Assembly (NCBI GenBank): GCA_900320225.1
Contig: ONRL01000015.1
Span: 24,383-88,382, forward strand
Source of the DNA: an uncultured Lentisphaerota bacterium
GTDB lineage: Bacteria > Verrucomicrobiota > Kiritimatiellia > RFP12 > UBA1067
Reading direction: 5' to 3'
Length of the DNA stretch: 64,000 bases
Made by a program: the position numbers and the translations under genes. Positions 32,654 through 58,589 of this stretch are shown one piece after another (positions within the stretch are counted from its first letter, which is position 1; each line of letters starts with the position of its first letter). The notes below the pieces were generated by a model. That model made no database searches. It saw only the letters and a program-made list of their open reading frames with translations, and was not told where the DNA came from.

Positions 32654-32727
32654 TGGAGCGGGCGAAGGGAATCGAACCCTCGTGGCCAGCTTGGAAGGCT
32701 GGAACTCTGCCATTGAGTTACGCCCGC
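32654..32727 (-). tRNA. tRNA-Gly (anticodon UCC), CCA encoded
   Basis: reverse complement GCGGGCGTAACTCAATGGCAGAGTTCCAGCCTTCCAAGCTGGCCACGAGGGTTCGATTCCCTTCGCCCGCTCCA; anticodon loop CTTCCAA. Confidence 0.85.
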
Positions 32728-43113: not shown

Positions 43114-43416
43114 ATGAGACCGAAAAAGACAATCCTGCTGCCCAAGGCGGCCAAATCCCTTCAGATTCTGGGACAGAACCTGAAGTTCGCCCGCATCCGC
43201 AGGCGCATCTCCGCCGCCATGATGTGTGAGCGTGCGGGCATCAGCCATGCGACCTTGACTGCCATTGAGCAAGGCAAGCCTTCCGTGTCAATGGCGGGTT
43301 ACATGTCAGTCCTCTTCTGCCTTAACATGCACGCGGACATTGAGAAGGTCGCCTCGGACGATGTCCTGGGACGCGAACTGCAGGACCTGCAGCTCCCAAA
43401 GAGGGTCCATTCATGA
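43114..43416 (+). CDS. hipB: HTH XRE-family antitoxin (HipB-like)
   Basis: helix-turn-helix SAAMMCERAGISHATLTAIEQGK; ATGA overlap with hipA-like start. Confidence 0.7.
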   Translation: MRPKKTILLPKAAKSLQILGQNLKFARIRRRISAAMMCERAGISHATLTAIEQGKPSVSMAGYMSVLFCLNMHADIEKVASDDVLGRELQDLQLPKRVHS

Positions 43417-44612
43417 AGCGCGTCGAGGTCCATATCGCCGAAGGCGAGACAAACCGTCGCCTTGGAGCGCTCGAATACGACGAACTTCGCGGCAAGGAGA
43501 TATCGTCGTTTGAACTCGACGGCGACTACATCCTCCATCCGTCCGTGCCGTTTCTCGGTCCGGACATCGGACTGTTCCGCGGCAAGCAGTATCCAACGCT
43601 TTCCTACGGATTTGGAATCTTTCAGGACGCAGCGCCTGATTCGTGGGGACGCAAGATCATCCGCCGCCGCGAGAAACGCGGCAATCTCCGCGAGAGCGAT
43701 TATCTCCTCGGCGTATTCGATCTGACGCGCCTCGGCGCACTTCGTTTCCGGCTTGATGGCGCCGAGGACTTCGTGAACGCGGACGGCGAGAATCCCGCGC
43801 CGCCCTGGACGACGCTGCGAACGCTTGAAGACTCATCCCGTCGGTTCGAGGAGGATGATTCCGACGAAGCGGCGCTTGCCGTCCTGCTCCGCCCGGGCAC
43901 GTCGCTCGGCGGCGCACGGCCGAAGGCGAGCGTGACGGCACCGGACGACAGCCTTTGGATCGCCAAGTTCCCTTCGAAGGAAGACGACTTCGATACGGGC
44001 GCATGGGAATACCTTGTCCATGTTCTTGCCGAGGACGCCGGGCTGCGCGTTCCGGAGGCGAAGGCGCAGAAATTCTCCAAGACCGGCACGACGTTCCTCT
44101 GCCGCCGGTTTGACCGCGACGGCGCGCGGCGCATTCCCTTCGCTTCGGCGATGGCGATGCTCGGCTGTGAAGACAGGCAGGAGGAAGGAAACGGCACGTA
44201 CCTTGACATCGCGGGCTTCCTCATGCAGCATGGCGCGAAGCCGGACGCGGACCTGCCGGAACTCTGGCGGCGCATCGTGTTCTCGCTTCTCGTCTCAAAC
44301 ACGGACGACCATCTGCGCAACCACGGTTTCGTCGCCGAACACGGCAGGTGGCGCCTTTCGCCCGCCTATGACCTCAACGCGAACGCGAAGCGTCCGCAGG
44401 CACTTTCCCTTGAACTGGACGCCGGCGTGCCGATAGAGTCTGTCGACACGCTTCTCGATGCCGCCGAATACTTTCGGTTGAGCAAGACGGAAGCGAACGC
44501 CCAGCTCTCCCGCATCCGCACAGCGGTTGCGAAATGGCGTACGATCGCCGTCCATCTCGGCATCCCTCGTCGCGAGCAGGAGGAGATGTCCGCCTGTTTC
44601 GCAAAATCCTAA
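43413..44612 (+). CDS. hipA: HipA-family Ser/Thr kinase toxin (type II TA)
   Basis: HipA_C motifs FLCRRFDR and VSNTDDHLRNHGF; ~400 aa. Confidence 0.75.
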   Translation: MKRVEVHIAEGETNRRLGALEYDELRGKEISSFELDGDYILHPSVPFLGPDIGLFRGKQYPTLSYGFGIFQDAAPDSWGRKIIRRREKRGNLRESDYLLGVFDLTRLGALRFRLDGAEDFVNADGENPAPPWTTLRTLEDSSRRFEEDDSDEAALAVLLRPGTSLGGARPKASVTAPDDSLWIAKFPSKEDDFDTGAWEYLVHVLAEDAGLRVPEAKAQKFSKTGTTFLCRRFDRDGARRIPFASAMAMLGCEDRQEEGNGTYLDIAGFLMQHGAKPDADLPELWRRIVFSLLVSNTDDHLRNHGFVAEHGRWRLSPAYDLNANAKRPQALSLELDAGVPIESVDTLLDAAEYFRLSKTEANAQLSRIRTAVAKWRTIAVHLGIPRREQEEMSACFAKS

Positions 44613-44624
44613 TTCCCCCGCGCG

Positions 44625-44790
44625 CGGTGGGGCGAGGCGTCCCGCCGAGCCGCCCACCATCACCCCGGGAGGGTCGCGCTCCGTCGCGACCACATGGATC
44701 GCCGCCATCTTGGCGGCGCACCCACCCACCCACCACCCCCCAAAAAACCAACTAACTCACCAACCAACCAACTAACCAACAAATTTCGCG
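44625..44790. repeat. BIME-like cluster (GGCGAGGCGTC palindrome, REP-A, palindrome E) followed by CCCA/CCAA microsatellite
   Basis: ccccgggagggtcgcgctccgtcgcgaccac; gccgccatcttggcggcg; cccacccacccaccacc...ccaaccaaccaactaaccaac. Confidence 0.85.
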
Positions 44791-45058
44791 CTTGTGCGGC
44801 CGAGAATGGTATGATAAACTATCGGCGCTTTCGGGAATTGATGCCCCCGGTGGGGCTATACAGCGAAAGCCGTCCGGACGGGACCCATGTCTGGAGTGCA
44901 TGGGATCCTCTTGGGCCGGGTAGCGAGATCCTCCGCTGAAAAACGCGGACGCCACTTCGGTGGATGGCTGGCAGGGCCGATTCCAAACTGCAGCGGCGGC
45001 GTGTGCCGTCGGTGATGTGCAGGAATACATCCCGCATCGCGGGAGAAAGGAATCGGTT

Positions 45059-46855
45059 ATGAAGTTCAAAGTCTTCATATCAAGCGTGCAGGACGAGTTT
45101 GCGGCCGAGCGTCGCAAGCTCAAGGATTGGCTGGGAAGCGATCCATTCATTTCGCGGTTCGTCGAGAGCGTCTTCTTGTTCGAGGATGTTCCTGCGAAGG
45201 GGCGCTCGCCGGTTGACGTGTATCTTGACGAGGTAAAGGGTTCGGATATCTACATCGGTCTCATCGGCGCGCAATATTACGGAAGGAACAGCGTGAAGCT
45301 GGGTGTGTCAGCTACCGAACGCGAATACGCCGCCGCCGTCTCCGCCGGAGTTGAATGCTGGGTTTATCTTTCCAATGTAGAGAAGCGGGACAAGAAGGCG
45401 GAGGCGCTTGTCAAGAAGGTCGGCTCCGCCGCCACGTGGGCAAAGTATGAAGGATTCCCCGAACTCCGCGACGCGGTCTTTTCAAGTTTCGTCGACTTCC
45501 TCGACAAGCGTCATTTGCTCGTCGTAAGCGACTTCGACATCATGGCCTGTCCGCAGGCCCGGATGGAGGACATCTCGACGGAACGCGTGAGCTGGTATCT
45601 GGAGATGCTGCACAGGCACGGCAAAAAATCGTTGCCGCTGGATGCGTCTCCGCAGAAGCTCTTGAAGCATCTCGGCATGTTGAAGGGCAAGTACCTGACC
45701 AACGCCGGAGTCCTGTTGTTTGGGACTAAGCCGCAGGACTTCTACTACCAGACCACGTTGAAGTGCGCGTGGGTCGAAGGAACGGTCTATACGCGCCCTT
45801 TCCTCGACACGGCAAAGTTCGAAGGCGACCTGTTCGCGCTTCTGGAACAGGGCAGAAACTTCGTGATGTCCCGGATCGCGCACAGTCGCGGACTCCGTAC
45901 GGACGGCCCCATCGCGCCGTCGCTTCCCGAAATCCCGGAGGAGGCCGTTGAGGAGGCAATCGTCAATGCGCTCATCCACCGCAACTGGCATTCAAGCGCG
46001 TCGGTTGAGATTCGCCTATTCGCAGATCGGCTTGAGGTGTGGAGTCCCGGACACCTCCCGCCAGATATCACAATCCCCGAACTCTACAAGGAACACGATT
46101 CCCATCCAGTCAACAAGGAGATCCTCAAGGCATTCGACAAGATCAACGTCATTGAGTCTCTGGGCACCGGCATCGAACGCATGATCGCGGCGTGCCATGC
46201 GTCGGGCTTGCCCACGCCGGTCTTCGAATACCATGGCTCTGCTTTTGTTGTGACGATCCTCAAAGACGCATGGACGCGCACCGCGTTGGAATCACTCGAC
46301 CTCAATCCCGACCAGATAAAGGCGGTCTCGTATGTGAAGGTGAACGGCTGGATTTCCTCATCGCGCTATGCCGAGCTGTACAAGGTTCCGATGCGGACGT
46401 CGAGCCGGGAACTTGGCGAACTGGCGCATAAGGGCGTGTTCGTTCTTGTGGGCAAGGGACGGCAGTCCCGGTACGAGCTGAAATCGAATCGCGCCAGAAT
46501 CGCGCCAATCGCGCCAATGCCTGAACAAGGCTCAAAACCCCAGAAAAACAAGGGGAAATTAACGGCCGATCGTAGTTTGTCACCACAAACTAGTAAAGAA
46601 AGCACCCAAGAAATCGCCCAAGAAACCGCCCAAGAAAACCTGTCGGTGGAGGAATCCAGAATTGTAGCTTACATTAAGGCGAATGCAGCGATTACGCGCA
46701 AGTTGCTATCAGAAAAGCTTGGTATAAGTTCTGACAGTGTTAAACGCCGTCTTGAAGCACTCAAGGCGAAGTTGGGCCTCCATCACGAAGGCCCAACCAA
46801 AAAGGGCCGCTGGGTGTTTGGTACTGAGTCCAAAGGAAAGCGGGGTGCCAAATGA
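45059..46855 (+). CDS. DUF4062 + AlbA_2/Schlafen-like + HATPase_c_4 (RecG-C-terminal-like) + wHTH domain protein, putative defence/regulatory ATP-binding protein
   Basis: MKFKVFISSVQDEFAAERRKLKDWL (DUF4062 N-terminus). LIHRNWHSSASVEIRLFADRLEVWSPGHLP...ESLGTGIERMIAACHASGLPTPVFE (HATPase_c_4 motif). Pro/Gln-rich tail with QEIAQETAQEN repeat. Confidence 0.6.
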   Translation: MKFKVFISSVQDEFAAERRKLKDWLGSDPFISRFVESVFLFEDVPAKGRSPVDVYLDEVKGSDIYIGLIGAQYYGRNSVKLGVSATEREYAAAVSAGVECWVYLSNVEKRDKKAEALVKKVGSAATWAKYEGFPELRDAVFSSFVDFLDKRHLLVVSDFDIMACPQARMEDISTERVSWYLEMLHRHGKKSLPLDASPQKLLKHLGMLKGKYLTNAGVLLFGTKPQDFYYQTTLKCAWVEGTVYTRPFLDTAKFEGDLFALLEQGRNFVMSRIAHSRGLRTDGPIAPSLPEIPEEAVEEAIVNALIHRNWHSSASVEIRLFADRLEVWSPGHLPPDITIPELYKEHDSHPVNKEILKAFDKINVIESLGTGIERMIAACHASGLPTPVFEYHGSAFVVTILKDAWTRTALESLDLNPDQIKAVSYVKVNGWISSSRYAELYKVPMRTSSRELGELAHKGVFVLVGKGRQSRYELKSNRARIAPIAPMPEQGSKPQKNKGKLTADRSLSPQTSKESTQEIAQETAQENLSVEESRIVAYIKANAAITRKLLSEKLGISSDSVKRRLEALKAKLGLHHEGPTKKGRWVFGTESKGKRGAK

Positions 46856-46899: not shown

Positions 46900-47170
46900 T
46901 CTACGCGGAGGGGCGAGGCGTCTCGCCGAGCTGCCCGGTAGGGCGGTCGCCCCGCGACCGCCGCCCGGGAGGGCCGCGCTTGTCGCGGTCTTTCGGGGAA
47001 GCGGCACTCATGCCGCTTCACTTGGTCAGGCCCGCTCGCCGAGCGGGCCGCCGCCTAACTGGGAAAGCCGCCATCTTGGCGGCGCACCCACCAACCAACC
47101 AACTAACCAACCACCCACTAACCAACCAACCAACCAACAAACCAACAAACCAACCAACCAACTACTCGCT
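46900..47170. repeat. largest BIME-like cluster (six palindromic units incl. REP-A, REP-B, palindrome E) followed by ~80-nt CCAACC microsatellite; marks the core/defence-island boundary
   Basis: ggcgaggcgtctcgcc; ggcggtcgccccgcgaccgcc; cccgggagggccgcgcttgtcgcggtc; gaagcggcactcatgccgcttc; ggcccgctcgccgagcgggcc; gccgccatcttggcggcg; (ccaacc)n. Confidence 0.85.
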
Positions 47171-47422: not shown

Positions 47423-47466
47423 GGCGCGCCCCTCTAACCAGAACAGAGAGGCGCGCCTTTCTGTTC
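47423..47466 (+). terminator. Rho-independent terminator-like hairpin (GGCGCGCCcCTCT-loop-AGAGaGGCGCGCC + TTTCTGTT); orphan, not associated with an annotated gene
   Basis: GC-rich 13-bp stem followed by T-tract, 570 nt downstream of the nearest + strand CDS and just before GC content drops. Confidence 0.4.
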
Positions 47467-47481
47467 GCAAACGAGAGACGG

Positions 47482-48843
47482 ATGAGCGAGCGGAGGAAAT
47501 GCGATGTTCGACATGACTCCTTGCCATGTGGCAAGGGGCAGGATGTCGTATGCCCTACGCATGTTGCTACTGCTGCCAGGTGTGATAAAAAGCGGATAAG
47601 GTTCATTGACCTCTTTGCGGGATGTGGTGGTTTGTCGGAAGGGTTTATTCAAGCTGGATATACGCCAGTCGCTCATGTGGAAATGAATGAGGCTGCCTGC
47701 TTCACGCTCAAGACCCGGATGGCCTATCATTGGCTGAAGAAGAACGGCAAGCTTGCCGACTATTGCGCTTACTTGAGAGGTGAAATTTCACGGGATGAGT
47801 TCTACAAAAAGATTCCTTCGCAAATTCTTGATTCGGTTATCAACGAAGAGGTTGGCGAAAAGACATTGGAGTCTCTGTTCGAAAAGATTGATGCGGCAAA
47901 GGGGGAGGAGACAATTGATCTGATCGTGGGCGGTCCGCCGTGTCAGGCCTATTCGCTGGTCGGACGGGCGAGGAAGTCTATGGAGGGGAATCCTCGCAAT
48001 TACCTCTTTCGGTATTACATTGAGTTCCTTAAGCACTACAAGCCGAAATGCTTTGTGTTTGAAAATGTCGTTGGTCTTCTATCCGCAGCAGACAAAGACG
48101 GCAACAAGTATCTTGATATGATGATTGACGGCTTCAAGGATGCAGGATACACCACTTCCTACGAGACCATCAATACGAAAACGCTTGGCATCCCACAGGC
48201 GCGTAAGAGGGTCATCATCATCGGCGTTCGCGGGAAGAAGAAGTTCAAGTACCCTAAGATGCGCGGCAGGCCATTCAAGTACACGGTCAATGAGATGTTG
48301 GATGGCTTGCCGGCGTTGCCCGCTGGCGGTATAGCGGAACCTTTTGACATCAAGGTGTCCGGTGATACTAAGGCGGCATTAAAGGCAACAGGTGTTCTGG
48401 ATGAAGCTATTCCGGTGACGCAGCATCAGGTTCGTCCGAACAATGCGAATGATTTGGAAATTTACAAGCGGGTTGTTGAGCTCTGGAACAAGGAGCATAA
48501 GCGACTGAGCTATGACACCTTGCCGGCAAGATTGCAAACCCATACAAACCGCAAGACTTTCAAGGATCGGTTTAAGGTCGTGGCGAGTGATGAGAAGGTC
48601 TGTCACACGGTTGTTGCACACATTCACAAGGACGGTCATTACTATATCCATCCTGACATCGAACAGAATCGTTCGATTTCGGTTCGCGAGGCCGCACGCT
48701 TGCAGACCTTTCCGGACAACTATTATTTCGAGAGCAGTTCGAAACGTCCCGGACGCGCCGCACCCTATCGTCAGATCGGCAACGCCGTTCCGGTGATGTT
48801 TGCGAAGAAGATTGCGGAAGCAATGAGAGGCTTGTTGAAGTGA
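47482..48843 (+). CDS. dcm: DNA (cytosine-5)-methyltransferase
   Basis: motif I FIDLFAGCGG, motif IV GGPPCQAYS, motif VI FVFENVVGL, motif X RQIGNAVPV. Confidence 0.9.
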   Translation: MSERRKCDVRHDSLPCGKGQDVVCPTHVATAARCDKKRIRFIDLFAGCGGLSEGFIQAGYTPVAHVEMNEAACFTLKTRMAYHWLKKNGKLADYCAYLRGEISRDEFYKKIPSQILDSVINEEVGEKTLESLFEKIDAAKGEETIDLIVGGPPCQAYSLVGRARKSMEGNPRNYLFRYYIEFLKHYKPKCFVFENVVGLLSAADKDGNKYLDMMIDGFKDAGYTTSYETINTKTLGIPQARKRVIIIGVRGKKKFKYPKMRGRPFKYTVNEMLDGLPALPAGGIAEPFDIKVSGDTKAALKATGVLDEAIPVTQHQVRPNNANDLEIYKRVVELWNKEHKRLSYDTLPARLQTHTNRKTFKDRFKVVASDEKVCHTVVAHIHKDGHYYIHPDIEQNRSISVREAARLQTFPDNYYFESSSKRPGRAAPYRQIGNAVPVMFAKKIAEAMRGLLK

Positions 48844-50948
48844 AAAAGGAACGGATTGCATTTAAGACGCGTGCAAGATTGCTTTGCCAGCTTGGTGAGC
48901 AACTCATCAAGTCTGAAGACATTGCCTTATTGGAATTGATAAAGAATTCCTATGATGCGGATGCGACATATTGCAATGTGCTGATGGAGAACGTTGCGGA
49001 TCCGAAAAATGGACGCATTGTTATTGATGATGATGGTTGTGGAATGAGCGCAGAACGTATTCGCCATACTTGGTTGGAGATCGGCACGAACTTCAAGGAG
49101 AGCCTTGCGGCGGATGAAGCGACCAAGAGGACTCCGAAGTTCAAGCGGATGCGCCTGGGAGAAAAGGGGATTGGGCGTTTCGGTGTGCATCGACTCGGGC
49201 ATAAAATTGATGTATATAGCAAGTCTGCGGATTCGCGGCTGGAAGCGCATTTGGCTATTGATTGGCGAAGTGCTGAGAAAGCGGAAATGATTGAGGATGT
49301 GCCGGTTTCTCTCACGGAGGATATTCCGCATTATTTCAAGGGAAAGAAAACCGGAACGCTTATCGTCATTACCAATTTGAAGGGTGAATGGACGCGAAAG
49401 ATGGCGCGAGACGTTGCACGGGCTATTGCGACGCTTAATTCTCCATTTGAGGAACAGGGAGAGTTTGTTCCGACGCTGAAGTTCACGGGACAAAGAGGCG
49501 AGGGCAAGTGGATTGACGGCATTGTTACATTCGATGAGATTCGTGCTAAGAGTCTCGGGTCGTTCGAAATTATGCTGAGGGGGAATCGAATTAAGAGCTT
49601 TGAGTATCATTTCACGCCGTGGAAGGTTATGGACAAGCTTCAGCCCCGTATGGTGAAGTGGGACTCGAAACATACCGAAGCGCGTTTGATTACGGAGGAT
49701 GATGAAGAGATCGATTTGTCCGAGATCGGAGAGGTGAGTTTCAAGGGGCTTGTCTTTGATTTGGATACAAAGATCCTGAAGCTTGGAATCCAAGATGTTG
49801 TGGGCTTCAAGGGTTATCTTCAGGCCAATGGTGGTGTCCGAGTTTACCGCGATAATATGCGGGTTCTGAATTACGGAGAGCCGGATGACGATTGGCTCGA
49901 CTTGAATTTTCGGCGCGTGAACCAGCCGACGCGCAAGGTAAGCTCAAATGTAATCATTGCCGCAGTCGGCCTTTCGCGTGAAAGCAGTGGTGCGTTGCGG
50001 GAAAAAGCGAATCGCGAGGGCTTTCTGAAGAACGCAGCATTCATGAAGCTTCGGAATGCCATCTTGTACGCGCTCAGCAAAGTTGAGCTTGAACGCAGCG
50101 TTGATAAAGATAGTATTCGCGCGGCTTATGGGAAGAAGGCTGAGATTAAAAATCGTCATGTGACGATGGATGACTTGCGGGCGGATGTCGAGACTTACGT
50201 CAAGAACAAGGTTGCGCGGAAGAAGATGTTGCAATGTATCGACCGTGTAGAGGATCAGTTTGAGGAATTTGCCGATTCTTTGATCAAGAGTGCAGGGGCG
50301 GGCCTAAACTTGTCGATGGTCATCCATCAAATGGAGAAAATCATCAAGAACGTTAAGGCCATGCTACGCAAACGAGGGCACGAGTCCGATGTGGCAAAGC
50401 AAATCGATTCACTGGCATTGCTGATTGAAGGATACAGCATCCTCATCCGTGAGTCTGATCGCAAGGTGCGCAATCTCGATGAGATTGTTGAACAGTCTGT
50501 GTATAATGTCGGATTTAGGTTGTCTGCGCATAAGATTGATCTCGTGGATGCGTATAAAAAGCGTGGAAAATGTCTGGCCTTGTGTACGGAAAACCATGCC
50601 ATTAACGCAATGCTGAACCTTTTCGACAATTCGATTTGGTGGCTGGGCTATTCGAAAACCGAATCACCGAAGATTTATGTGGATATCGTTGAATCGAAGT
50701 TGTATAAGGATTCGATTGCGATTGTTGTTGCTGATAATGGGCCGGGGTTCTCACGGGATCCGGAGGAGATGATCAAGCCGTTTGTCACTTCCAAACCTAA
50801 TGGCATGGGCATTGGGTTGCATTTGACGAATGAGATAATGTTGTCTTTGGGCGGGAAACTCGATTTTCCTGCAGCGAAGGATGTTGGCGTTCCAAAGGCA
50901 TTTGCCAATGGCGCCATAGTTGCCTTGGTGTTTCCGAAGGAGGCCTAA
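48840..50948 (+). CDS. MORC-like GHKL-superfamily ATPase (HATPase_c_3) large protein, 702 aa
   Basis: Bergerat ATP-binding motifs LELIKNSYDADATYCNV...VIDDDGCGMS...GEKGIGRFG. GTGA overlap with dcm stop, so translationally coupled. C-terminal ~400 aa unassigned. Confidence 0.7.
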   Translation: MKKERIAFKTRARLLCQLGEQLIKSEDIALLELIKNSYDADATYCNVLMENVADPKNGRIVIDDDGCGMSAERIRHTWLEIGTNFKESLAADEATKRTPKFKRMRLGEKGIGRFGVHRLGHKIDVYSKSADSRLEAHLAIDWRSAEKAEMIEDVPVSLTEDIPHYFKGKKTGTLIVITNLKGEWTRKMARDVARAIATLNSPFEEQGEFVPTLKFTGQRGEGKWIDGIVTFDEIRAKSLGSFEIMLRGNRIKSFEYHFTPWKVMDKLQPRMVKWDSKHTEARLITEDDEEIDLSEIGEVSFKGLVFDLDTKILKLGIQDVVGFKGYLQANGGVRVYRDNMRVLNYGEPDDDWLDLNFRRVNQPTRKVSSNVIIAAVGLSRESSGALREKANREGFLKNAAFMKLRNAILYALSKVELERSVDKDSIRAAYGKKAEIKNRHVTMDDLRADVETYVKNKVARKKMLQCIDRVEDQFEEFADSLIKSAGAGLNLSMVIHQMEKIIKNVKAMLRKRGHESDVAKQIDSLALLIEGYSILIRESDRKVRNLDEIVEQSVYNVGFRLSAHKIDLVDAYKKRGKCLALCTENHAINAMLNLFDNSIWWLGYSKTESPKIYVDIVESKLYKDSIAIVVADNGPGFSRDPEEMIKPFVTSKPNGMGIGLHLTNEIMLSLGGKLDFPAAKDVGVPKAFANGAIVALVFPKEA

Positions 50949-50949
50949 G

Positions 50950-52260
50950 ATGGAATTGCCACAGAACGCGCGTGTTGCCATCGTCGATAATGTGTATGGC
51001 GAGGTGGAAGGGCTGATGGAGGCGCTTGCATCAAAAGGAGTGCCTGTTGTTTACTATCAGGGACAGAAGAAATTTCCAAAGCTGCCTTTGTCTGGCATTC
51101 GTTTATTGTTTCTTGATTTAGAGCTAGATGGCCTTGAGGGGCAGTCTGATAAGGCCAAAACGGCGACTGCGGCTGCAAATGCATCCACTTTAATCGCACC
51201 TGGTAATGGCCCGGTTGTGATTGTGCTTTGGACTAAGCACAGCGGTAAAGGTGTCGTGGACCGGTTTCGTGGTTATCTGAAGGGTCATATGACAAATCCT
51301 TACTTTGTTGTGTGCATGGATAAGGCGAGTTGTCAGGACAAGGCTGGTAAGTTTTCTACGGCACGAATCAAACGGAACCTTTCCCTGAAGTTGGCGGGGG
51401 CAAATGTTATTGGACTGCACACGACGTGGGAAAATGCGCTTTTCAAGGGCTCTGTGAAGTTGGCAGATCGTGTAGCTGCCATCGCGTCCGCAGATGAGGA
51501 CTGGCAGATCGTGATCTCACGTATGTTTTATAAGCTTTATAAGGCGAATAGCGAGAAGGTCGAGCTTAAAACGCTGAAAGAACAGTTCTTAAGTGCTTGT
51601 TCATTGTATGGTGCGGGGTTGCTGAATGCGATTAACTTCGAATTGTCTCGTTCTTCGTTGTCTTGCGGCAAGAGGTTTTCCTTGGTGAAGGAGAAACTTG
51701 CCGGAGACAGAGAGGCGAGGTTGAATGGATTGCTGAATGCTTTCCTTTATTACGACAAAGACCGAGCCGATCCCAATGTGCCAGGGACTGTATATGCGGT
51801 TCGTTCTGGTGGTGCGGACATTAAGTGTGGCATTGTGGCAGATTTCTTTGTGGAGAAATCGGCGCAGAAAGTGATTCGGAGCAAGGTCGCAAAAGATGTT
51901 CGTCTCTGTAAGATTGTTGTAACGCCATCTTGTGATTGCTCACAGAAAAAGGAGTTTCGATCTGGAGGTGGAAAAAAGTCGAAAACCTATGACCGAGTCG
52001 TATGGGCGCTGCTGGTGAATCGAGCCATGGGTGCGGAGTACATTGAACGTAAATACCGCAAGACCAGATGCTATTTGCTGGAGGGCTTTGAGTATGACGG
52101 CGGCATGTACGATCTGCTGATTGATCTCGACACATTGGGTTTTGAGGTCCTTGACCTCAAGAAACAAAGTCGCCTGTTTACTCTAACATCGATGGTGCTG
52201 GCCGATGTTCAGTCCAAATTGGCGAATCAGCTGAATCGCATAGGCATTGTATCGGTATGA
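50950..52260 (+). CDS. hypothetical protein with N-terminal receiver-like (CheY-fold-like) region; C-terminal part unassigned
   Basis: ARVAIVDNVYGEVEGLMEALASKGVPVVYY...IRLLFLDLELDG pattern of alternating beta/alpha with an acidic pocket. 1-nt gap to upstream stop; ATGA overlap with downstream start. Confidence 0.45.
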   Translation: MELPQNARVAIVDNVYGEVEGLMEALASKGVPVVYYQGQKKFPKLPLSGIRLLFLDLELDGLEGQSDKAKTATAAANASTLIAPGNGPVVIVLWTKHSGKGVVDRFRGYLKGHMTNPYFVVCMDKASCQDKAGKFSTARIKRNLSLKLAGANVIGLHTTWENALFKGSVKLADRVAAIASADEDWQIVISRMFYKLYKANSEKVELKTLKEQFLSACSLYGAGLLNAINFELSRSSLSCGKRFSLVKEKLAGDREARLNGLLNAFLYYDKDRADPNVPGTVYAVRSGGADIKCGIVADFFVEKSAQKVIRSKVAKDVRLCKIVVTPSCDCSQKKEFRSGGGKKSKTYDRVVWALLVNRAMGAEYIERKYRKTRCYLLEGFEYDGGMYDLLIDLDTLGFEVLDLKKQSRLFTLTSMVLADVQSKLANQLNRIGIVSV

Positions 52261-53132
52261 ATATGCGTTGTTGTCGATACATGAAGTTTGGTTACGCGAA
52301 TGCGTCTTTGAGGGATAACTTCTTCAGAGTTAGCGGTCCGCTGGATTTTAATGATCCATTCGAATGCAGAGGATGCTATATTCATTTTGATGAGGCGTTG
52401 CGAAAGTATGTTCATCAGAACTTTGAGAGATTGAGGTTTGAGTCTATACGTCGAACTAATTCAACGACGCCGGAACTTCAAGCAAGGTTTACGGAAGAGT
52501 TCCTGTTTAAGACATACTTTGATTCAGCATCCCGATCGCTTGACAGTTCTTGGATTAACGCTGTTAATGAAACGGTTTTGATGTTGTGCTTTGTCAAGGA
52601 GCGAGGGTTGAAGCCCACCTCTGACGTTTTGTTCTGGTCGCATTACGCGGATTCTGGCAAGGGTGTCCGTATTGTGTTTGACTTGCCCGAAAGACCACGG
52701 GGGGGCGTTTATTATATGAAGGAAGTTGAGTATTGTGAGAAGGTGCCAGCATTTGACTGTCGGAAGATGGATGCTTGGCTTCAAGGGAAAGAATTTCAGG
52801 ATTATTTGGAGCGTATTTCACATGTGAAGGGGAAGGCTTGGGAATATGAGAATGAAATCCGAATGATTATACCACGGCGCATTCCTGAGCAGATGAAGCG
52901 AGTGCCGTTTGCTCATTTGTGTCCTCGTGAGAAAGACGGGGTAACACATTATTTTGTGCGAATTAATTACGATGCGATTCGGCGCATAGATTTTGGACCG
53001 CATGTTGATTTGAAACAGGCAGTGCGGTTAATTGAAGACCTGAAGCACGAAAAAGGTACTGGGCACATAGCATTCTGGCAAGCAACGTTGGGCTCAGGAT
53101 CATACACGTACATTTATCAGAAAGTGGCATAA
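52257..53132 (+). CDS. DUF2971 family protein
   Basis: N-terminal MKFGYANASLRDNFFRVSGPLDFNDPFE matches the DUF2971 signature (...FNDPFE); overlaps upstream stop (ATGA). Confidence 0.6.
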   Translation: MNMRCCRYMKFGYANASLRDNFFRVSGPLDFNDPFECRGCYIHFDEALRKYVHQNFERLRFESIRRTNSTTPELQARFTEEFLFKTYFDSASRSLDSSWINAVNETVLMLCFVKERGLKPTSDVLFWSHYADSGKGVRIVFDLPERPRGGVYYMKEVEYCEKVPAFDCRKMDAWLQGKEFQDYLERISHVKGKAWEYENEIRMIIPRRIPEQMKRVPFAHLCPREKDGVTHYFVRINYDAIRRIDFGPHVDLKQAVRLIEDLKHEKGTGHIAFWQATLGSGSYTYIYQKVA

Positions 53133-53186
53133 GGAATGATAGGAGAGGTGAATCTGGCTCGTAAGGCTTGACTGTGAGTAGTTGAT

Positions 53187-53735
53187 ATGGCGATATGCAT
53201 CAATAAATTAAAATCCTCTCAGGTCCTTGACGACTGTCAAAGGTCGTTGGATTTGTTGGAGAATGTGCCGGATGGGGACAAGCAGTTGTTCCGCATCTAC
53301 TGGACATTCTGCTTGGTAGCGTTACGCAGTGTTGAAGATGCCTTGATAAAAAATGATGCAAAGAGGTATCCAGAAATGATGGCGCCGTTAAAAGAGAGGC
53401 ACAATCAGCTTATGGCGCTTAAAACAAAATACCCGGACAATATAAAGTACGAAGAGTGCGATAGTGACGATTATTTAATCTACCACCGTCTTATACGCGG
53501 TGAGCGTAATTCTGCGGTCCATGAAGCGGCTCAAGCTTATGTAGATGGTATGTGGTCTATGGTTGCTGATAAAGGCCTTGCCAATTGGGGTAATACTTAT
53601 CTGCCGATGTGGGATTTTGACAAATGGGGACTCGATGACTGTAGGGATTGGATGCAAAGAGGGATAGATTGGTGGAGAAAAGAGATAGAATCCATTGCGA
53701 CTAAAGCCATTGAAGCACAAGGGAAAGAAAAATGA
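53187..53735 (+). CDS. hypothetical protein, Trp-rich
   Basis: 182-aa ORF 55 nt downstream of the DUF2971 gene, same strand; no recognisable motifs. Confidence 0.4.
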   Translation: MAICINKLKSSQVLDDCQRSLDLLENVPDGDKQLFRIYWTFCLVALRSVEDALIKNDAKRYPEMMAPLKERHNQLMALKTKYPDNIKYEECDSDDYLIYHRLIRGERNSAVHEAAQAYVDGMWSMVADKGLANWGNTYLPMWDFDKWGLDDCRDWMQRGIDWWRKEIESIATKAIEAQGKEK

Positions 53736-54361
53736 TTTTCAGACTTGGAGAACTTTTTTGTGCCCCAGGAGGTTTGGCTTGGGGTGCCACGCATGCAAAC
53801 ATAGGTAATCCAGAATGGTGGATACAACATGCATGGGCGAATGATTATAGCGTGCGATATTGTTTGCATGGGCAATGCAACTTCCCAATGGAATATAAAT
53901 CGATAAATCGCGCATTGTGTTTGTGCGCTTGATTCGTATGGACGATTTTAAGCTGGTCAACACATCAGGGAGAGAGCGATGACCACGATAGAAGTAAATA
54001 CTATTAGGAATTATGCAGAGATGATACTTGGACATATTAAGGAGTCTAGGTGTAGGCACAAGAAAATATCGTGTAAGGCATTAAAGTTTTGGAGTGCGGC
54101 CATATACAACTTTGCCGAACAGAGTAGACGCTTTGAGAATCATCTTCCTATTGGACGTGAGGGGATAGAATTTATTTCGGAGCATTAATGATGAGTAACG
54201 GCTTGCATAACGGCGATAAAACTCAGGACGATTCTCTTGTTCTTCTGGATGAGGAATGGCCTTGTTACAGTGTGAAGTCTATCTTCAATGCGGTCATGGC
54301 GGTTTGGCTTGCGGAGCCGAGATGTTCCTTTGTTCTTCATCAGTGAATCGGAGGCACTTGG

Positions 54362-56485
54362 ATGATCAATAAGGCAGATTTCTCGGTATGGCTGTCAAGT
54401 GGCAACAAAGAGAACAGCGGCAAAGCCCGCAGTTATTTGACTGCGCTTAACGACATAGATCAAATCCTTCATTCACTCGTCAAGGAGTTTGACTCGCCAA
54501 GTGTTTTTGAGTTGCCAAAGCATTCGCTTGAGACACTTCGCGAATTCTTCATAAAGGAATCAAAGAATTCAGCATCGGTAATATTGGGGATGCAGGGACT
54601 TCATGGTAGTTCGTATCTCAAAAATCGCTTTTACTCCGCAAGTGTCAGCAAGCTGTTGGACTATCTATTAGAGAAGCAGGGAACAGAATCGATTCGTTTT
54701 TCTGGATTTCCAGATCACCTCTCCATTGCGCTGAGGGTCTTTGCCGAAAAGCGGTATGCGGCAGAATGGCAGGACAAGACGAGCAAGGATGGCTATCAGA
54801 ATATCTACGACATGGCAGCGATGACGCCGGAGCAGATTGCCGCAGGGTCGCTTGACGATTTCTACAATGATTTCCTGTTGAAGATCTGGGCGTTCAAGAA
54901 TGGCGGCAGTCGGCGATATGGACAGCTTGACGAGGCAGGTAGAAAAGCCTATCGGCAGTTCGTTGTTGATTTGAAGACGCAGCTCAAGAGCTTTGACTCC
55001 TACTTCCCGCCCAATACGCAATGTCCCGATGGCATGGGCGTGGGCGTGCTTACGGAGTTGATGATGCGCTTCTGGCCGAATTCGTGTTGCAACTACAACG
55101 CAAGTCTCATCCACGAGGCACTTGTTACGTTACACATGGCGGAAGGGGACTTCGTCTGGCCGAAAACGCCGTCCGTCTATCAGGATTTCATGGGCAAGTG
55201 TGCGACTATCCTGCTCAAGATGGAGCAGATGAAACTGCCGCGCCGTTCCGATCCCGGCAATGACGAGCCGCCGGACTACATCACCGTGAACGAGTTTCTG
55301 TGGTTCGTCCGCGAGTACAAGGATTTAATTCAGGAGGAAGTCATGAGCAAGAAGATGAAAACCGATGCGCCTACGAAGTATGACGAAGGCAAGCGCAAAA
55401 CACTCGCGTTCGATCCTAATTCAAAGGATGACGAACTTCTTCTGCGTCTGCTTGCCGCGCTTCGCGCCAAGCCGTTCGCCATCCTCGCCGGACACTCCGG
55501 CACTGGCAAGAGCCGCTATGTGAAGAAGCTTGCGTACATGACCTGCAACATGGACGAGCTGCGTAACGAAAAGCAGCTGCCGGGCAACTATCTTCTCCTT
55601 CAGGTCAAGCCCAACTGGCACGATTCCACCGAACTGCTTGGTTTCCGCAACGCGATGGACGGCGACCGCTACCAGAAGACCAAGCTTATCGAATTCCTTT
55701 TCCGTGCCTATCAGTTCAAGGACACGCCATTCTTCCTCTGCCTTGACGAGATGAACCTTGCGCCGGTTGAACAGTATTTTGCCGAGTTTTTGAGTTCGAT
55801 GGAGTCTGCGGAACCTGTTCCGCTTAATGACATCACCGTGAAGGACGACAATCTTTTCGATCTTGGTTGCGAATGGAAAGCCGCTTACGATTACTTGGCG
55901 GCGAACGGCTTCTCCATCCCGAAGAATCTGTTCATCGTCGGTACAGTCAACATGGACGAGACGACCAACCAGTTCTCGCGCAAGGTTCTTGACCGTGCCT
56001 TCACGATAGAGATGACGGATGTCGACTTTAAGAACTACGGACATGTCACCCAGCCGAGTTATGCCGACACCATCGAGGAAGAAAAGATACAGGCGCTTCT
56101 CAATGGGGAGAAGTTCGTGGATAAGCTTGATGCCGAGGATGTAGCTGAGGGCGCGCCTCTTGTCAAGGTACAGAAAGCCCTGGAGCCAACTGCGTTTGCG
56201 GTCGCATATCGCTTCGCAAACGAATACACGCTTCTGAAAAGGGCGATTGCGTGTTTCGACAAGGACAGTACGATGAAGCTGGACGCGCTTGACCAGGCCG
56301 TTCTAATGAAGATCCTGCCGCGTGTTGCGGGCGAAAAGGATTACATTGAGAAGGTCTATGGCAAGAACGATAACGAGGGTCTTCGGAAAGCGCTTGAGGG
56401 GAAGTCTGTCTCGCTTAAGAAAATTGCCGAGATCATGAAACGCGCCAATGACATGAACGCCCAGTACATCACGTTCTGGCCATGA
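54362..56485 (+). CDS. mcrB: McrB-like AAA+ GTPase subunit (type IV methyl-dependent restriction), with long N-terminal domain
   Basis: FAILAGHSGTGKSRYV (Walker A), FFLCLDEMNLAPVEQYFAEF (McrB-type Walker B), NLFIVGTVNMDETT (sensor). Confidence 0.7.
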   Translation: MINKADFSVWLSSGNKENSGKARSYLTALNDIDQILHSLVKEFDSPSVFELPKHSLETLREFFIKESKNSASVILGMQGLHGSSYLKNRFYSASVSKLLDYLLEKQGTESIRFSGFPDHLSIALRVFAEKRYAAEWQDKTSKDGYQNIYDMAAMTPEQIAAGSLDDFYNDFLLKIWAFKNGGSRRYGQLDEAGRKAYRQFVVDLKTQLKSFDSYFPPNTQCPDGMGVGVLTELMMRFWPNSCCNYNASLIHEALVTLHMAEGDFVWPKTPSVYQDFMGKCATILLKMEQMKLPRRSDPGNDEPPDYITVNEFLWFVREYKDLIQEEVMSKKMKTDAPTKYDEGKRKTLAFDPNSKDDELLLRLLAALRAKPFAILAGHSGTGKSRYVKKLAYMTCNMDELRNEKQLPGNYLLLQVKPNWHDSTELLGFRNAMDGDRYQKTKLIEFLFRAYQFKDTPFFLCLDEMNLAPVEQYFAEFLSSMESAEPVPLNDITVKDDNLFDLGCEWKAAYDYLAANGFSIPKNLFIVGTVNMDETTNQFSRKVLDRAFTIEMTDVDFKNYGHVTQPSYADTIEEEKIQALLNGEKFVDKLDAEDVAEGAPLVKVQKALEPTAFAVAYRFANEYTLLKRAIACFDKDSTMKLDALDQAVLMKILPRVAGEKDYIEKVYGKNDNEGLRKALEGKSVSLKKIAEIMKRANDMNAQYITFWP

Positions 56486-56504
56486 TCGGAGACTTCCTGC
56501 GGTA

Positions 56505-58589
56505 ATGTCTGAAACTGTCTACACATATACGCATGGCGATGTCTTTACGCTGAAGGTGATGGGCCGAAACGCCGGCCGATACGAGGCGTACTGCAAGCGC
56601 ATCGGCGTGGAAGAAGGCTCTGACGAGAGCCGTGTGGACATATCTTCTCCCAACGGAGTGGAGCAGATGGAGCCGCCCTTCTTCGAGACACGCTATTTCT
56701 TGCGGTGTGACTTCAAAGATGCGTCTATCCGCGACGCAGTGTTCTTCCATAAGATGGCCAGCGTTTCGGAGGCGTTCGACTTTGACGGCAAAACGCTCGT
56801 GGGTGTACTTGATTTCGTGAACGCTCCGGGCAAGTTCCACTTTGAGATAGTCTGGTATCGCGGCGGCGTTCGCGAATCGGCGGCATTTGACTGGATAGTT
56901 GTGTCTGAGAAGCTTAACGTCCAAAGTGATTACAAAGAAATCGTCACGACTATCGAGGAGAATGCGCCTGGGTTGGTGCGGGCGTTTCTTGCGAAGTCAA
57001 AGGGCGCGGCGGGGCTTATCCGTCGCGACGACACCAATGACGCAATTTGGGCGGATATTTTCAACGAGATCGGCGACCGTTATCAGAGAGCGTGCGAGTG
57101 GATCGTGAACAGGCCGCACCTCAAGTACATTTCGGAAGTCGAGTATCGGCGAGCAGGACTGGTCAAGCGATGGACGCCGGGCTTGGTCAACAGTTATGCG
57201 ACCATGGGCAAGGGGCGGCGAGCGGTTGCTCTTTTCAGGACGGAACACATATCGCCGCAGGTTGATACGGTAGAGAATAGGTTCGTCAAGTTCACCTTGC
57301 GGAGTGTCGTTGCAAGGTTGGAAAAATTCGCGTCTGTCTGTGAGGGGCACAAGACGGTCAGCGAGGTGTTCGTAAAGGACCTGCGGGCGCGGGCGGCGAG
57401 ACTTGCCAAGACGATGCGCAATCCTTTTTTCGTCGGCGTGGGACATTTCACGGGTTTGCGTCAAGAGAGCATGGTTCTGCAGCGGCGGCAGGGATATGCG
57501 GACATCTATGCGACATGGTTGATGCTCAAGCATACTCTCGATACAACGCAAACGGGTCTGGCAGTTGGACACAGGCCGATCAGCGCGCTCTACGAGTTCT
57601 GGTGTTTTCTGCGCATGGCAGATTTGCTGGAGAAGGACTTCGGATTTGGACGCCCGGAAGGTATGATAGACGGGGCTAAGGTCTATGACGACCTCTTCGA
57701 AGAACCGGACCCTGACAAGATTGACACCACGACGCTCTCTGCACTGACGTACAAGTTTCCCGAAAAAGATGGGGTTTCCATTAAACTACTGTATCAGCAG
57801 AACTACGGCAAGGAGACTGTCGATGGAGATTTGGCTTACTATAATCCGCAACGGCCTGACATTGTGCTAGTGATTGAACGCGGGAAGGATGTGTTCACTT
57901 ATCTGTTCGACGCCAAATACCGCATTGATGAGCGTGGTGGGAAGGATGCTTCCCCAGCTGAGCCGATCAACGACATGCATCGTTACAGAGATGCGATTTT
58001 GTATCGTTCACAAGAGGATGACCGTAAGTTGTCTCGGCAGATCGTTGGCGCGTATGTGCTCTATCCCGGCCGGCCTCTGCCACAGAGCTACAACTACGCG
58101 GAACTGATCAAAAACGAGAACATCGGCGCCATCCCTCTTCTGCCAGGCGAGGATGGCGGGAGCGCACTAAAGTCATTCATTGGCGAAATTCTCAGTAAGA
58201 AGACCCCGGAATCGCACCTTTCCGCCGACATCCCGACTCGCGGCACCACGGTGGTCGTCGGGAAGGACGAGGGCGTATTTCTTGAAAATGAAGTCGTGTA
58301 CGGGACATACGCGGCAGGGCAGCTTGATTGGATTCTTGAGAAGCACATGTACAATCTGCCGGTGGAAGAGTCTGAGAAGTTTGGCATCGTGGATATGGCG
58401 ACGGCCGAGCAGAAGAAAATTCTTTATCTTGTTGCTTTTCGTGGAACCGGTAGTCACCGTGTTTTCAGGCTTCTGCCCGGTGTGCGTAAAGTGACGCCGA
58501 ATGACTTGTGGAAAATGGGATATCCTAGGCAATGTCGCTATGACGAATACTGGTTGTTTAAGTTAGGCGAAGAACTAGGGCTAAGGTAG
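56505..58589 (+). CDS. mcrC: McrC-like partner nuclease (PD-(D/E)xK), enlarged 694-aa variant
   Basis: PD-(D/E)xK core RPDIVLVIE...LFDAKYR near C-terminus; 20-nt gap after McrB-like gene. Confidence 0.6.
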   Translation: MSETVYTYTHGDVFTLKVMGRNAGRYEAYCKRIGVEEGSDESRVDISSPNGVEQMEPPFFETRYFLRCDFKDASIRDAVFFHKMASVSEAFDFDGKTLVGVLDFVNAPGKFHFEIVWYRGGVRESAAFDWIVVSEKLNVQSDYKEIVTTIEENAPGLVRAFLAKSKGAAGLIRRDDTNDAIWADIFNEIGDRYQRACEWIVNRPHLKYISEVEYRRAGLVKRWTPGLVNSYATMGKGRRAVALFRTEHISPQVDTVENRFVKFTLRSVVARLEKFASVCEGHKTVSEVFVKDLRARAARLAKTMRNPFFVGVGHFTGLRQESMVLQRRQGYADIYATWLMLKHTLDTTQTGLAVGHRPISALYEFWCFLRMADLLEKDFGFGRPEGMIDGAKVYDDLFEEPDPDKIDTTTLSALTYKFPEKDGVSIKLLYQQNYGKETVDGDLAYYNPQRPDIVLVIERGKDVFTYLFDAKYRIDERGGKDASPAEPINDMHRYRDAILYRSQEDDRKLSRQIVGAYVLYPGRPLPQSYNYAELIKNENIGAIPLLPGEDGGSALKSFIGEILSKKTPESHLSADIPTRGTTVVVGKDEGVFLENEVVYGTYAAGQLDWILEKHMYNLPVEESEKFGIVDMATAEQKKILYLVAFRGTGSHRVFRLLPGVRKVTPNDLWKMGYPRQCRYDEYWLFKLGEELGLR

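What the first reader, a model, noticed from the sequence alone, without database searches (positions are those of the whole stretch)
47482..53735. Candidate undescribed defence operon: C5-methyltransferase + MORC-like GHKL ATPase + receiver-like protein + DUF2971 protein (+ hypothetical)
Four genes are translationally coupled by overlapping stop/start codons (GTGA at 48840, 1-nt gap at 50949, ATGA at 52257). A fifth follows after 55 nt. All lie in a lower-GC island next to known defence modules. The combination of a Dcm-type MTase with a 702-aa GHKL (Bergerat-fold) ATPase, a protein with a CheY-like N-terminus and a DUF2971 protein does not match BREX, DISARM, Dnd/Ssp, Druantia, Gabija, Lamassu or Septu architectures as I know them. 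GHKL/MORC-type ATPases linked to R-M genes have been predicted computationally but are not an experimentally characterised defence system.
Basis: partly seen in the sequence, partly recalled or inferred. Interest (0 to 1): 0.85.

Follow-up and report, generated by a model that had tools for sequence, protein, structure and literature searches.

The report
Methylase-linked MORC–kinase and receiver module
A cytosine DNA methylase gene is followed by a conserved gene pair built like a two-component signalling system: a MORC-type ATPase fused to a histidine kinase, then a receiver protein with an unknown output domain.

Summary
The ORFs, the overlapping stop/start codons and the low-GC island are all there as described.

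The conserved unit is three genes, not five:
- **Dcm**: a C5-cytosine methylase.
- **702-aa protein**: a MORC-like GHKL ATPase with a middle domain, fused to a histidine-kinase DHp hairpin (His496, present in all 91 aligned homologs) and an intact kinase ATP-binding domain.

In 80 species-level genomes from Bacteria and Archaea, the receiver gene directly follows the kinase gene in 74. A Dcm lies within 4 kb in 65, and a Vsr gene is present in 44.

The DUF2971 gene accompanies the trio only in near-identical relatives. It resembles the validated single-gene defence Aristaios. The 182-aa gene belongs to the decayed LlaJI-like module downstream.

Bellieny-Rabelo et al. (2021) already described this architecture computationally (HEF_HK/Response_reg_2), but their Pfam models do not match this clade. 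I found no experimental work.

The most likely function is a methylation-linked, phosphorelay-gated defence. This is a new member of a known but untested kind.

The parts
47482..48843 (+). C5-cytosine DNA methyltransferase (Dcm type, 453 aa). Motif I FAGCGG at residue 45, catalytic PPCQ at 152, ENV at 194.
   Evidence: Pfam DNA_methylase 3.3e-60; TIGR00675 dcm 6e-53; PADLOC DrmMII PDLC02649 1.3e-152; motifs read. A Dcm lies within 4 kb of the kinase-like gene in 65 of 80 genomes.
48840..50948 (+). 702-aa MORC-like ATPase fused to a histidine-kinase-like transmitter. N-terminal GHKL 48840-49439; middle beta-rich domain 49467-49979; long helices 50034-50438, including the DHp-like hairpin 50301-50438 with His496 (50325-50327); kinase ATP-binding (CA) domain 50463-50936.
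   Evidence: HATPase_c_3 residues 27-173 and HATPase_c residues 586-680. AF2 model with pLDDT 77. Foldseek top hits are MORC2, SMCHD1, MORC3 and Hsp90, with HK853 matching the C-terminus. PDB profile hits to HK853 and others cover residues 517-674. Conserved in 93 homologs: E32, N36, D39, D64xGxG, H496 in 91 of 91 aligned, N597, D632xGxG, G655xGxG.
50950..52260 (+). 436-aa receiver-effector protein. CheY-fold receiver 50971-51324, with Asp56 at 51115-51117; output domain 51358-52257, with invariant Cys328-Asp329 at 51931-51936.
52257..53132 (+). DUF2971 protein (291 aa). It is carried in the same mobile cassette in this lineage only, and is probably an independent single-gene defence candidate.
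   Evidence: Pfam DUF2971 30.1 bits, cut-off 22; PADLOC PDC-S31 2.2e-23; phrog_1762 1.6e-29. Present after the receiver gene only in L009-L011 and L094, and in none of 80 genome loci. A DUF2971 protein, Aristaios, is a validated single-gene antiphage system (PMC11381338).
47434..53145 (.). Limits of the shared cassette (Dcm + kinase-like + receiver-effector + DUF2971). DNA similarity to a relative from a different genomic context starts and stops here.
   Evidence: blastn: window 47434-53145 matches L009 5217-10930 at 91.7% identity, and the flanks are unrelated.
53187..53735 (+). 182-aa conserved hypothetical gene. It is NOT part of the module; it is the leading gene of the next, decayed m5C restriction module.
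   Evidence: 66 homolog clusters. Found in front of Dcm-Dcm-McrB-like-McrC-like genes (L096-L100) or HNH_2+Dcm (L094). In the window its stop overlaps the ATG of a Dcm motif-I remnant at 53732. Absent from L009-L011 and from the 80 genome loci.

Best explanation
The functional unit is Dcm + a MORC-histidine-kinase fusion + a receiver-effector. This is the 'two-component-system-like' module linked to C5 methylases that comparative genomics predicted in 2021.

**Proposed mechanism.**
1. Dcm marks the host's own DNA with 5-methylcytosine. This is inferred from family membership.
2. In the 702-aa protein, the N-terminal MORC/paraMORC-type GHKL ATPase and its middle domain sit where a kinase normally has its sensor. 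They are proposed to act as an ATP-driven dimerising DNA clamp that reports on DNA state, for example incoming DNA that lacks the mark. This is inferred.
3. That signal switches on the C-terminal DHp+CA transmitter, which autophosphorylates His496. All kinase boxes are shown to be intact; the chemistry is inferred.
4. The phosphoryl group passes to Asp56 of the 436-aa receiver protein. The receiver fold and the full set of conserved receiver residues are shown; the transfer is inferred.
5. Phosphorylation activates the 300-aa output domain, which is the effector acting on DNA or the cell. Its fold has no known relative and its activity is unknown.

The DUF2971 gene is a separate Aristaios/PDC-S31-like passenger of the cassette. 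The 182-aa gene belongs to the neighbouring LlaJI-like module.
For: **Architecture.** There are two GHKL domains. The fold matches MORC2/SMCHD1/MORC3 at the N-terminus and HK853 at the C-terminus. The DHp-like hairpin carries His496 in all 91 aligned homologs, followed by Glu in 75. N, G1, F and G2 boxes are intact.

**Linkage.** The receiver gene is directly downstream in 74 of 80 genomes, a Dcm lies within 4 kb in 65, and Vsr is present in 44. Kinase-like and receiver proteins co-vary (Spearman 0.68), whereas Dcm is exchanged freely (0.08).

**Sister family.** On Campylobacter plasmids NCBI annotates the pair as 'sensor histidine kinase' and 'response regulator' next to dcm. That regulator shares the TPSCDxxxxK output motif.

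**Defence setting.** The module lies in a low-GC island between DUF4062/HATPase_c_4, McrBC-like and AAA_21 genes. It is mobile: the same cassette occurs in other contexts, on conjugative plasmids and next to DISARM genes.

**Literature.** PMC8011034 describes the same architecture. Detocs shows that a His-to-Asp phosphorelay can run a defence system.
Against: - No experiment exists for any member.
- The output domain has no recognisable nuclease or toxin fold or motif, so 'effector' is an assumption.
- In the window's clade the residue after the phospho-acceptor His is Gln, not the usual acidic residue. This holds for 12 of 91 homologs and could weaken autokinase activity.
- Dcm is swapped without regard to kinase lineage. 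That is hard to square with a sequence-specific restriction enzyme matched to its methylase.
- Some loci already carry a complete classical R-M system beside the pair, for example dcm+vsr+EcoRII-C on a Rhizobium plasmid. That fits a regulatory or accessory role equally well.
Confidence: 0.6

Rival explanations
1. Regulatory two-component system. The pair senses an intracellular cue and controls the expression or activity of the linked methylase or restriction genes, rather than being the effector itself. This is the suggestion of the 2021 paper.
For: The authors of PMC8011034 propose signalling that controls R-M systems. Some loci have a complete classical R-M set next to the pair, such as dcm+vsr+EcoRII-C or HNH_2+Dcm. 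Free swapping of Dcm fits a generic controller.
Against: No HTH or other DNA-binding domain is detectable in the output domain. Many loci, the window included, have only Dcm plus the pair and no other nuclease to regulate. The N-terminal sensor is a MORC-type DNA-manipulating ATPase.
Confidence: 0.2
2. Methylation-linked repair aid. A MutL-like ATPase assists Vsr in very-short-patch repair of the T:G mismatches that 5-methylcytosine deamination creates.
For: Vsr is present in 44 of 80 loci, often right after the receiver gene. E. coli MutL is known to interact functionally with Vsr, as cited in PMC2292703.
Against: Vsr is absent from 36 of 80 loci and from the window. Vsr accompanies Dcm genes generally. 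A kinase-receiver relay and a 300-aa output domain have no role in known VSP repair. The module sits in defence islands and on plasmids.
Confidence: 0.08
3. One reading: one new five-gene (or four-gene) defence operon in which the DUF2971 protein and the 182-aa protein are obligatory partners.
For: Overlapping or near-overlapping codons link the first four genes in the window. The four-gene block moves as one cassette at 92% DNA identity.
Against: DUF2971 is in none of 80 genome loci. In L009 it is separated from the receiver gene by a 20-nt gap. DUF2971 proteins act alone in Aristaios and PDC-S31. The 182-aa gene is absent from L009-L011 and is tied to other modules.
Confidence: 0.07

Closest known systems
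HEF_HK / Response_reg_2 two-component-like pair linked to C5 methylases (Bellieny-Rabelo, Pretorius and Moleleki 2021, PMC8011034; Pfam PF19191/PF19192)
   Same: A soluble protein with N-terminal HATPase_c_3, a DHp-like hairpin with a conserved His, and a C-terminal HATPase_c. An adjacent protein with a receiver-like domain and no other known domain. C5 methylase upstream, Vsr often downstream, R-M genes around (searches compared).
   Different: The two Pfam models do not match the window proteins or any relative scanned. The H-box reads HE[IV]EK, or HQMEK in the window, rather than HEF. So this is a divergent or sister clade. It also reaches Archaea and, in this lineage, carries a DUF2971 gene.
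Prokaryotic MORC / paraMORC GHKL ATPases of restriction-modification operons (Iyer, Abhiman and Aravind 2008, PMC2292703)
   Same: N-terminal GHKL with intact ATP motifs plus a middle domain. The fold is closest to MORC2, MORC3 and SMCHD1. Linked with Dcm and Vsr and spread by lateral transfer.
   Different: The described paraMORC1-5 have nuclease, TIR or other C-terminal extensions and helicase partners. None has a histidine-kinase transmitter or a receiver partner.
Detocs, the defensive two-component system (Rousset et al., bioRxiv 10.1101/2023.01.24.525353)
   Same: Kinase plus receiver-effector logic used for defence. There, the His and Asp are required for protection.
   Different: Detocs has a TPR sensor, a third buffer receiver protein and usually a PNP ATP-nucleosidase effector, and no methylase. 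Here the sensor is a MORC-like ATPase, there is no buffer gene, the output domain is unknown and a Dcm is linked. No sequence relationship was detected.
GHKL-Shedu VcSduA (paraMORC3) of Vibrio cholerae (PMC12137116)
   Same: An experimentally validated defence protein in which an N-terminal GHKL ATPase is thought to control an effector.
   Different: It is a single polypeptide with a DUF4263 PD-(D/E)xK nuclease, and has no kinase, receiver or methylase.
Aristaios / PADLOC PDC-S31 (DUF2971 single-gene systems; PMC11381338)
   Same: The fourth gene has DUF2971 above Pfam's cut-off and matches PDC-S31 over nearly its whole length. Its size is similar: 291 aa against 316 aa.
   Different: No direct comparison with the Aristaios sequence was possible. 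Here the gene rides in a cassette behind the three-gene module.
DISARM class 2 (DrmMII methylase)
   Same: The Dcm matches PADLOC's DrmMII model PDLC02649 end to end at 1.3e-152. In Methanolobus and one actinobacterial MAG the module sits beside DISARM helicase and DUF1998 genes.
   Different: No DrmA, DrmB or DrmC in the window. 78 of 80 genome loci lack them.

Membership tests
HEF_HK/Response_reg_2 TCS-like pair (PMC8011034) | One soluble protein with N-terminal HATPase_c_3 and C-terminal HATPase_c | tested here: met
   PF13589 at residues 27-173 (3.6e-21) and PF02518 at residues 586-680 (1.5e-16). All 120 listed homologs carry both domains.
HEF_HK/Response_reg_2 TCS-like pair (PMC8011034) | DHp-like two-helix hairpin with a core His followed by an acidic residue, just before the C-terminal ATP-binding domain | tested here: met
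   Helices 488-510 and 515-533. His496 is present in all 91 aligned homologs, followed by Glu in 75 and Gln in 12, the window among the latter.
HEF_HK/Response_reg_2 TCS-like pair (PMC8011034) | Adjacent gene for a receiver-like protein with the conserved Asp, Asp, Asp, Thr and Lys, and no other known domain | tested here: met
   [not shown]
HEF_HK/Response_reg_2 TCS-like pair (PMC8011034) | Linkage to a C5-cytosine methylase, with Vsr frequent | tested here: met
   Dcm within 4 kb in 65 of 80 loci and Vsr in 44 of 80. In the window Dcm is directly upstream and there is no Vsr.
HEF_HK/Response_reg_2 TCS-like pair (PMC8011034) | Match to the Pfam models PF19191 (HEF_HK) and PF19192 (Response_reg_2) | tested here: not met
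   Neither model appears, at thresholds of E<=0.1 or E<=1, for the window proteins, the 19 aligned receiver homologs, the Rhizobium and Campylobacter plasmid pairs, or five proteobacterial pairs. I could not confirm that the library copy holds these two models.
Classical two-component system | His autophosphorylation and His-to-Asp phosphotransfer | not testable with these tools
   Only the residues and folds needed for it are shown.
MORC/paraMORC GHKL ATPases | Bergerat-fold motifs I-IV followed by an S5-like middle domain | tested here: met
   E32, N36, D39, D64xGxG, G107-G112 and G172-T173 are essentially invariant. About 470-500 columns align to the MORC2, MORC3 and SMCHD1 ATPase modules at E 5e-12 to 1e-10. 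The S5 assignment of residues 210-380 rests on that fold match only.
DISARM class 2 | DrmA helicase, DrmB (DUF1998) and DrmC (PLD) together with DrmMII | tested here: not met
   Only the methylase matches. The neighbours are HipA, a DUF4062 protein, McrBC-like genes and an AAA_21 protein.
Detocs | DtcA kinase with TPR sensor, stand-alone buffer receiver DtcB, receiver-PNP effector DtcC | tested here: not met
   No third receiver gene is present. There are no TPR or PNP domains and no PADLOC hit other than REase_II for the kinase-like protein. The architecture is described.
BbrUII/HgiDII family type II restriction enzymes | Full-length match to NF050001 (cut-off 550 bits) | tested here: not met
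   80.5 bits, covering residues 16-197 only, which is the GHKL domain. The PADLOC REase_II hits are likewise N-terminal only.
Aristaios / PDC-S31 (fourth gene only) | DUF2971 domain protein of about 260-320 aa | tested here: met
   PF11185 at 30.1 bits against a cut-off of 22. PDC-S31 PDLC04990 at 2.2e-23, covering 19-251 of 259 profile positions.
Aristaios / PDC-S31 (fourth gene only) | Protects against phage as a single gene | not testable with these tools
   Reported for the lactococcal protein only.

The most novel reading that the evidence does not exclude
This is a widespread immune system, present in at least 585 species-level genomes of Bacteria and Archaea. In it a MORC-type DNA clamp serves as the sensor of a histidine kinase. 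It reads the cytosine-methylation state of DNA regardless of the methylase's sequence specificity, and activates by His-to-Asp phosphotransfer an effector domain of a fold with no known relative (signature TPxCDxxQxK). That would be a self/non-self mechanism different from classical restriction, and a prokaryotic precedent for MORC proteins acting on unmethylated or foreign DNA.
Probability: 0.3. Interest if true: 0.8.

Novelty: new member of a known kind. Interest (0 to 1): 0.5.

Why it matters
The Dcm + MORC-kinase + receiver-effector trio is common. At least 585 species-level genomes carry it, there are 1655 receiver-protein clusters at 50% identity, and it occurs on conjugative plasmids. 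Yet PADLOC does not name it, Pfam and NCBIfam do not recognise the receiver protein, and I found no experimental work.

If it is a defence system, it would be only the second type run by a His-to-Asp phosphorelay, after Detocs. It would also be the first to couple such a relay to DNA methylation and to a MORC-like ATPase, a protein class whose eukaryotic members silence foreign DNA by a mechanism still debated.

The analysis gives precise handles for testing: His496, Asp56, the two ATP sites and Cys328-Asp329. It also corrects the operon boundaries, so a cloning experiment would use the right genes.

Tried and rejected
3. **DISARM membership**, suggested by the DrmMII hit. Rejected because no DrmA, DrmB or DrmC is present.
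4. **MADS.** It uses an N6 methylase with a specificity subunit and has eight genes, so it is unrelated.
5. **Genome scan with the receiver-protein alignment.** It failed because no stretch was conserved enough. I used the kinase-like alignment instead.
6. **Receiver protein against plasmids by tblastn.** No match, although the kinase-like protein finds 221 plasmids. The receiver protein evolves too fast for single-sequence search.
7. **Supplementary tables of the 2021 paper.** They are not held, so I could not check whether specific genomes overlap.
8. **Promoter and terminator scan.** It found no more sites than shuffled sequence gives, so it is uninformative.

Full report
**1.

The junctions are as stated:
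- The GTG start of the 702-aa gene overlaps the Dcm stop (GTGA).
- The 436-aa gene starts one base after the TAA of the 702-aa gene, behind an AAGGAGG site.
- The DUF2971 gene overlaps the 436-aa gene by ATGA.
- The fifth gene follows a short spacer.

GC drops from about 0.65 to 0.44-0.55 from about 47 kb to the end of the window. The flanks carry defence-type genes: HipA, a DUF4062/HATPase_c_4/wHTH protein, a McrB-like AAA_5 protein with a DUF2357/PDDEXK_7 partner, an AAA_21 (PDC-M62A) ATPase and HNH proteins. The host is probably a Kiritimatiellae bacterium. An identical type II/IV secretion ATPase cluster carries that name, and all the genes looked up sit on a 405-kb contig.

**2. What the proteins are.**

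*Gene 1* is a standard C5 methylase. It scores Pfam 3e-60 and has motif I FAGCGG, catalytic PPCQ and ENV.

*Gene 2* has two GHKL domains, not one: HATPase_c_3 at residues 27-173 and a histidine-kinase-type HATPase_c at 586-680. NCBIfam histidine-kinase models align to residues 502-701. The AlphaFold model (pLDDT 77) shows four parts:
- an N-terminal GHKL domain;
- a beta-rich middle domain (210-380);
- long helices ending in a two-helix hairpin (488-533);
- a kinase ATP-binding domain (542-699).

Foldseek places the first 470-500 residues with the MORC2, SMCHD1, MORC3 and Hsp90 ATPase modules, and the C-terminus with HK853. A sequence profile also finds HK853-type kinases over residues 517-674. 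In 93 homologs both ATP sites are essentially invariant. His496, in the first hairpin helix, is present in all 91 that align there, followed by Glu in 75 and by Gln in 12, the window among them.

*Gene 4* is a DUF2971 protein that matches PADLOC's single-gene candidate PDC-S31.

*Gene 5* has no domain hit.

**3. What is conserved elsewhere.**

The 702-aa protein has thousands of full-length relatives of about 700 aa. At least 585 species-level genomes encode one, from most bacterial phyla and from Archaea such as Methanolobus and Cenarchaeum. In the 80 loci fetched:

| Feature | Loci out of 80 |
|---|---|
| Receiver-protein homolog directly downstream | 74 |
| Dcm within 4 kb | 65 |
| Vsr in the locus | 44 |
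| DUF2971 gene | 0 |
| 182-aa gene | 0 |

The receiver protein family has 1655 cluster representatives, nearly all 400-480 aa.

Pairwise similarity of kinase-like proteins tracks that of their receiver partners (Spearman 0.68) but not that of the neighbouring Dcm (0.08). Among pairs of loci with closely related kinase-like proteins, half have essentially unrelated Dcm proteins. So the pair is a co-evolving unit, and the methylase is interchangeable.

A more distant branch, at 25% identity, sits on Campylobacter conjugative plasmids. There NCBI's pipeline calls the two genes 'sensor histidine kinase' and 'response regulator', next to dcm. That regulator shares the TPSCD...K output motif.

**4. 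Boundaries in the window.**

DNA similarity to a relative in a different genomic context runs exactly from 47434 to 53145 at 91.7%. That span is Dcm + kinase-like + receiver + DUF2971 and nothing else. DUF2971 follows the trio only in these near-identical relatives, where a 20-nt gap can separate it from the receiver gene. A DUF2971 protein is a validated stand-alone antiphage gene, Aristaios (PMC11381338). I therefore read gene 4 as an independent passenger.

The 182-aa gene has 66 homolog clusters. It is found immediately before Dcm-Dcm-McrB-like-McrC-like modules or an HNH_2+Dcm pair. In the window its stop overlaps the ATG of an ORF that begins MIFRLGELFCAPGGLAWG. That is motif I of a C5 methylase, and the ORF breaks off after about 66 codons. 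The McrB-like C-terminus and the McrC-like protein downstream are 81-85% identical to those of L097. There, two intact Dcm genes lie between them and the 182-aa gene. Gene 5 thus belongs to the next module, which has lost its methylases.

**5. Comparison with what is known.**

The architecture was published by Bellieny-Rabelo, Pretorius and Moleleki in 2021. They described:
- a soluble protein with HATPase_c_3, a new DHp-like domain (HEF_HK, PF19191) and HATPase_c;
- linkage in 91.6% of 644 regions to a gene with a receiver-like domain (Response_reg_2, PF19192);
- C5 methylases upstream, Vsr downstream and R-M genes nearby.

They suggested descent from paraMORCs and a role in signalling that controls R-M systems. 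No experiment was reported, and I found none since.

Every architectural feature is met here. However, neither Pfam model matches the window proteins or any relative I scanned, and the H-box reads HE[IV]EK rather than HEF. The window's family is therefore a divergent or sister clade of the published one.

It is not DISARM: only the methylase matches, and the helicase, DUF1998 and PLD genes are absent. In Methanolobus, though, the module does sit right behind DISARM genes, which may explain the strong DrmMII hit. It is not a BbrUII/HgiDII restriction enzyme, because only the GHKL domain matches. It is not Detocs, which has a different sensor, a buffer protein and a different effector. It is not MADS.

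**6. Mechanism.**

*Shown:* the folds, the intact catalytic and phospho-acceptor residues, the tight co-evolving pairing, the link to Dcm, and the mobile defence-island setting.

*Inferred:* Dcm marks self DNA. The MORC-like module, sitting in the sensor position of the kinase, reports on DNA state. His496 is autophosphorylated and passes the phosphate to Asp56. The output domain is then switched on as the effector.

The free exchange of Dcm argues against a restriction enzyme with a matched recognition sequence. It fits better a reader of methylation state in general, or a guard of methylase function.

Weak points are the unknown activity of the output domain, the Gln after His496 in this clade, and loci where a complete classical R-M system stands beside the pair. 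Those loci keep the regulatory reading alive. The repair reading (MutL-like helper of Vsr) is weakened because Vsr is missing in 45% of loci, the window included.

**7. Verdict.**

This is a new member, possibly of a sister clade, of a computationally predicted and experimentally untouched methylase-linked two-component-like module. It sits next to a probable Aristaios-like gene and a decayed LlaJI-like restriction module.

Interest is moderate. It is not a discovery, but it is a widespread, well-defined and directly testable candidate immune mechanism.

Noticed in passing
window 53732-53932: An ORF overlaps the stop of the 182-aa gene and begins MIFRLGELFCAPGGLAWG, which is motif I of a C5 methylase. 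It ends after about 66 codons. It is the remnant of the two Dcm genes that relatives (L096-L098) carry at this position.
   Followed up: yes
window 54362-58589: A McrB-like AAA_5 protein (707 aa, PDC-M26A) and a DUF2357+PDDEXK_7 McrC-like protein (694 aa). From memory, the arrangement in relatives resembles LlaJI-type R-M (two Dcm + R1 + R2). Here the methylases are gone, and the N-terminal third of R1 (54362-55228) finds no match in the R1 of L097. Whether the pair is still active, or has become methylation-dependent, is open.
   Followed up: partly
window 58732-61786: An AAA_21/PDC-M62A ATPase (632 aa) overlaps a 387-aa protein with weak HNH-endonuclease PHROG hits. This is another candidate two-gene defence module.
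   Followed up: no
window 62118-63458: A 446-aa protein whose C-terminal 50 residues match the HNH region of the Cas9, IscB and Cas9d models (E 6e-07 to 5e-03).
   Followed up: no
window 43413-46855: A HipA_C kinase (399 aa) with a 100-aa ORF upstream, then a 631-aa DUF4062 + HATPase_c_4 + winged-helix protein with weak PADLOC hits to pAgo-associated and CARF-type models. The island therefore starts before the finding.
   Followed up: no
window 47086-47162: An (ACCA)n tetranucleotide array of 19.5 copies lies in the 600-bp spacer just upstream of the cassette boundary (47434).
   Followed up: no
L001 (Methanolobus vulcani) 1-11819; also L025: The Dcm + kinase-like + receiver + Vsr module lies directly after DISARM-type genes (helicase, DUF1998/MZB, PLD, a 1012-aa protein). 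PADLOC's DrmMII model PDLC02649 matches the window's Dcm end to end. Some methylases filed as DrmMII may really belong to this module, or the module may sometimes serve DISARM.
   Followed up: partly
L030 (uncultured Cenarchaeum sp.) 7674-18068: Several kinase-like and receiver-like ORFs lie in tandem (at least three kinase-like copies), with no Dcm in the 18-kb locus.
   Followed up: no
[not shown]
   Followed up: no
L096-L098: A variant module: Dcm (401 aa), a 783-aa HATPase_c_3+HATPase_c protein, and a 297-aa partner that shows no profile similarity to the receiver-effector family (hhalign E 0.46).
   Followed up: partly
window 32556-32727: tRNA-Leu(CAA) and tRNA-Gly(UCC) lie on the minus strand, about 12 kb upstream of where GC starts to fall. 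No link to the island was established.
   Followed up: no
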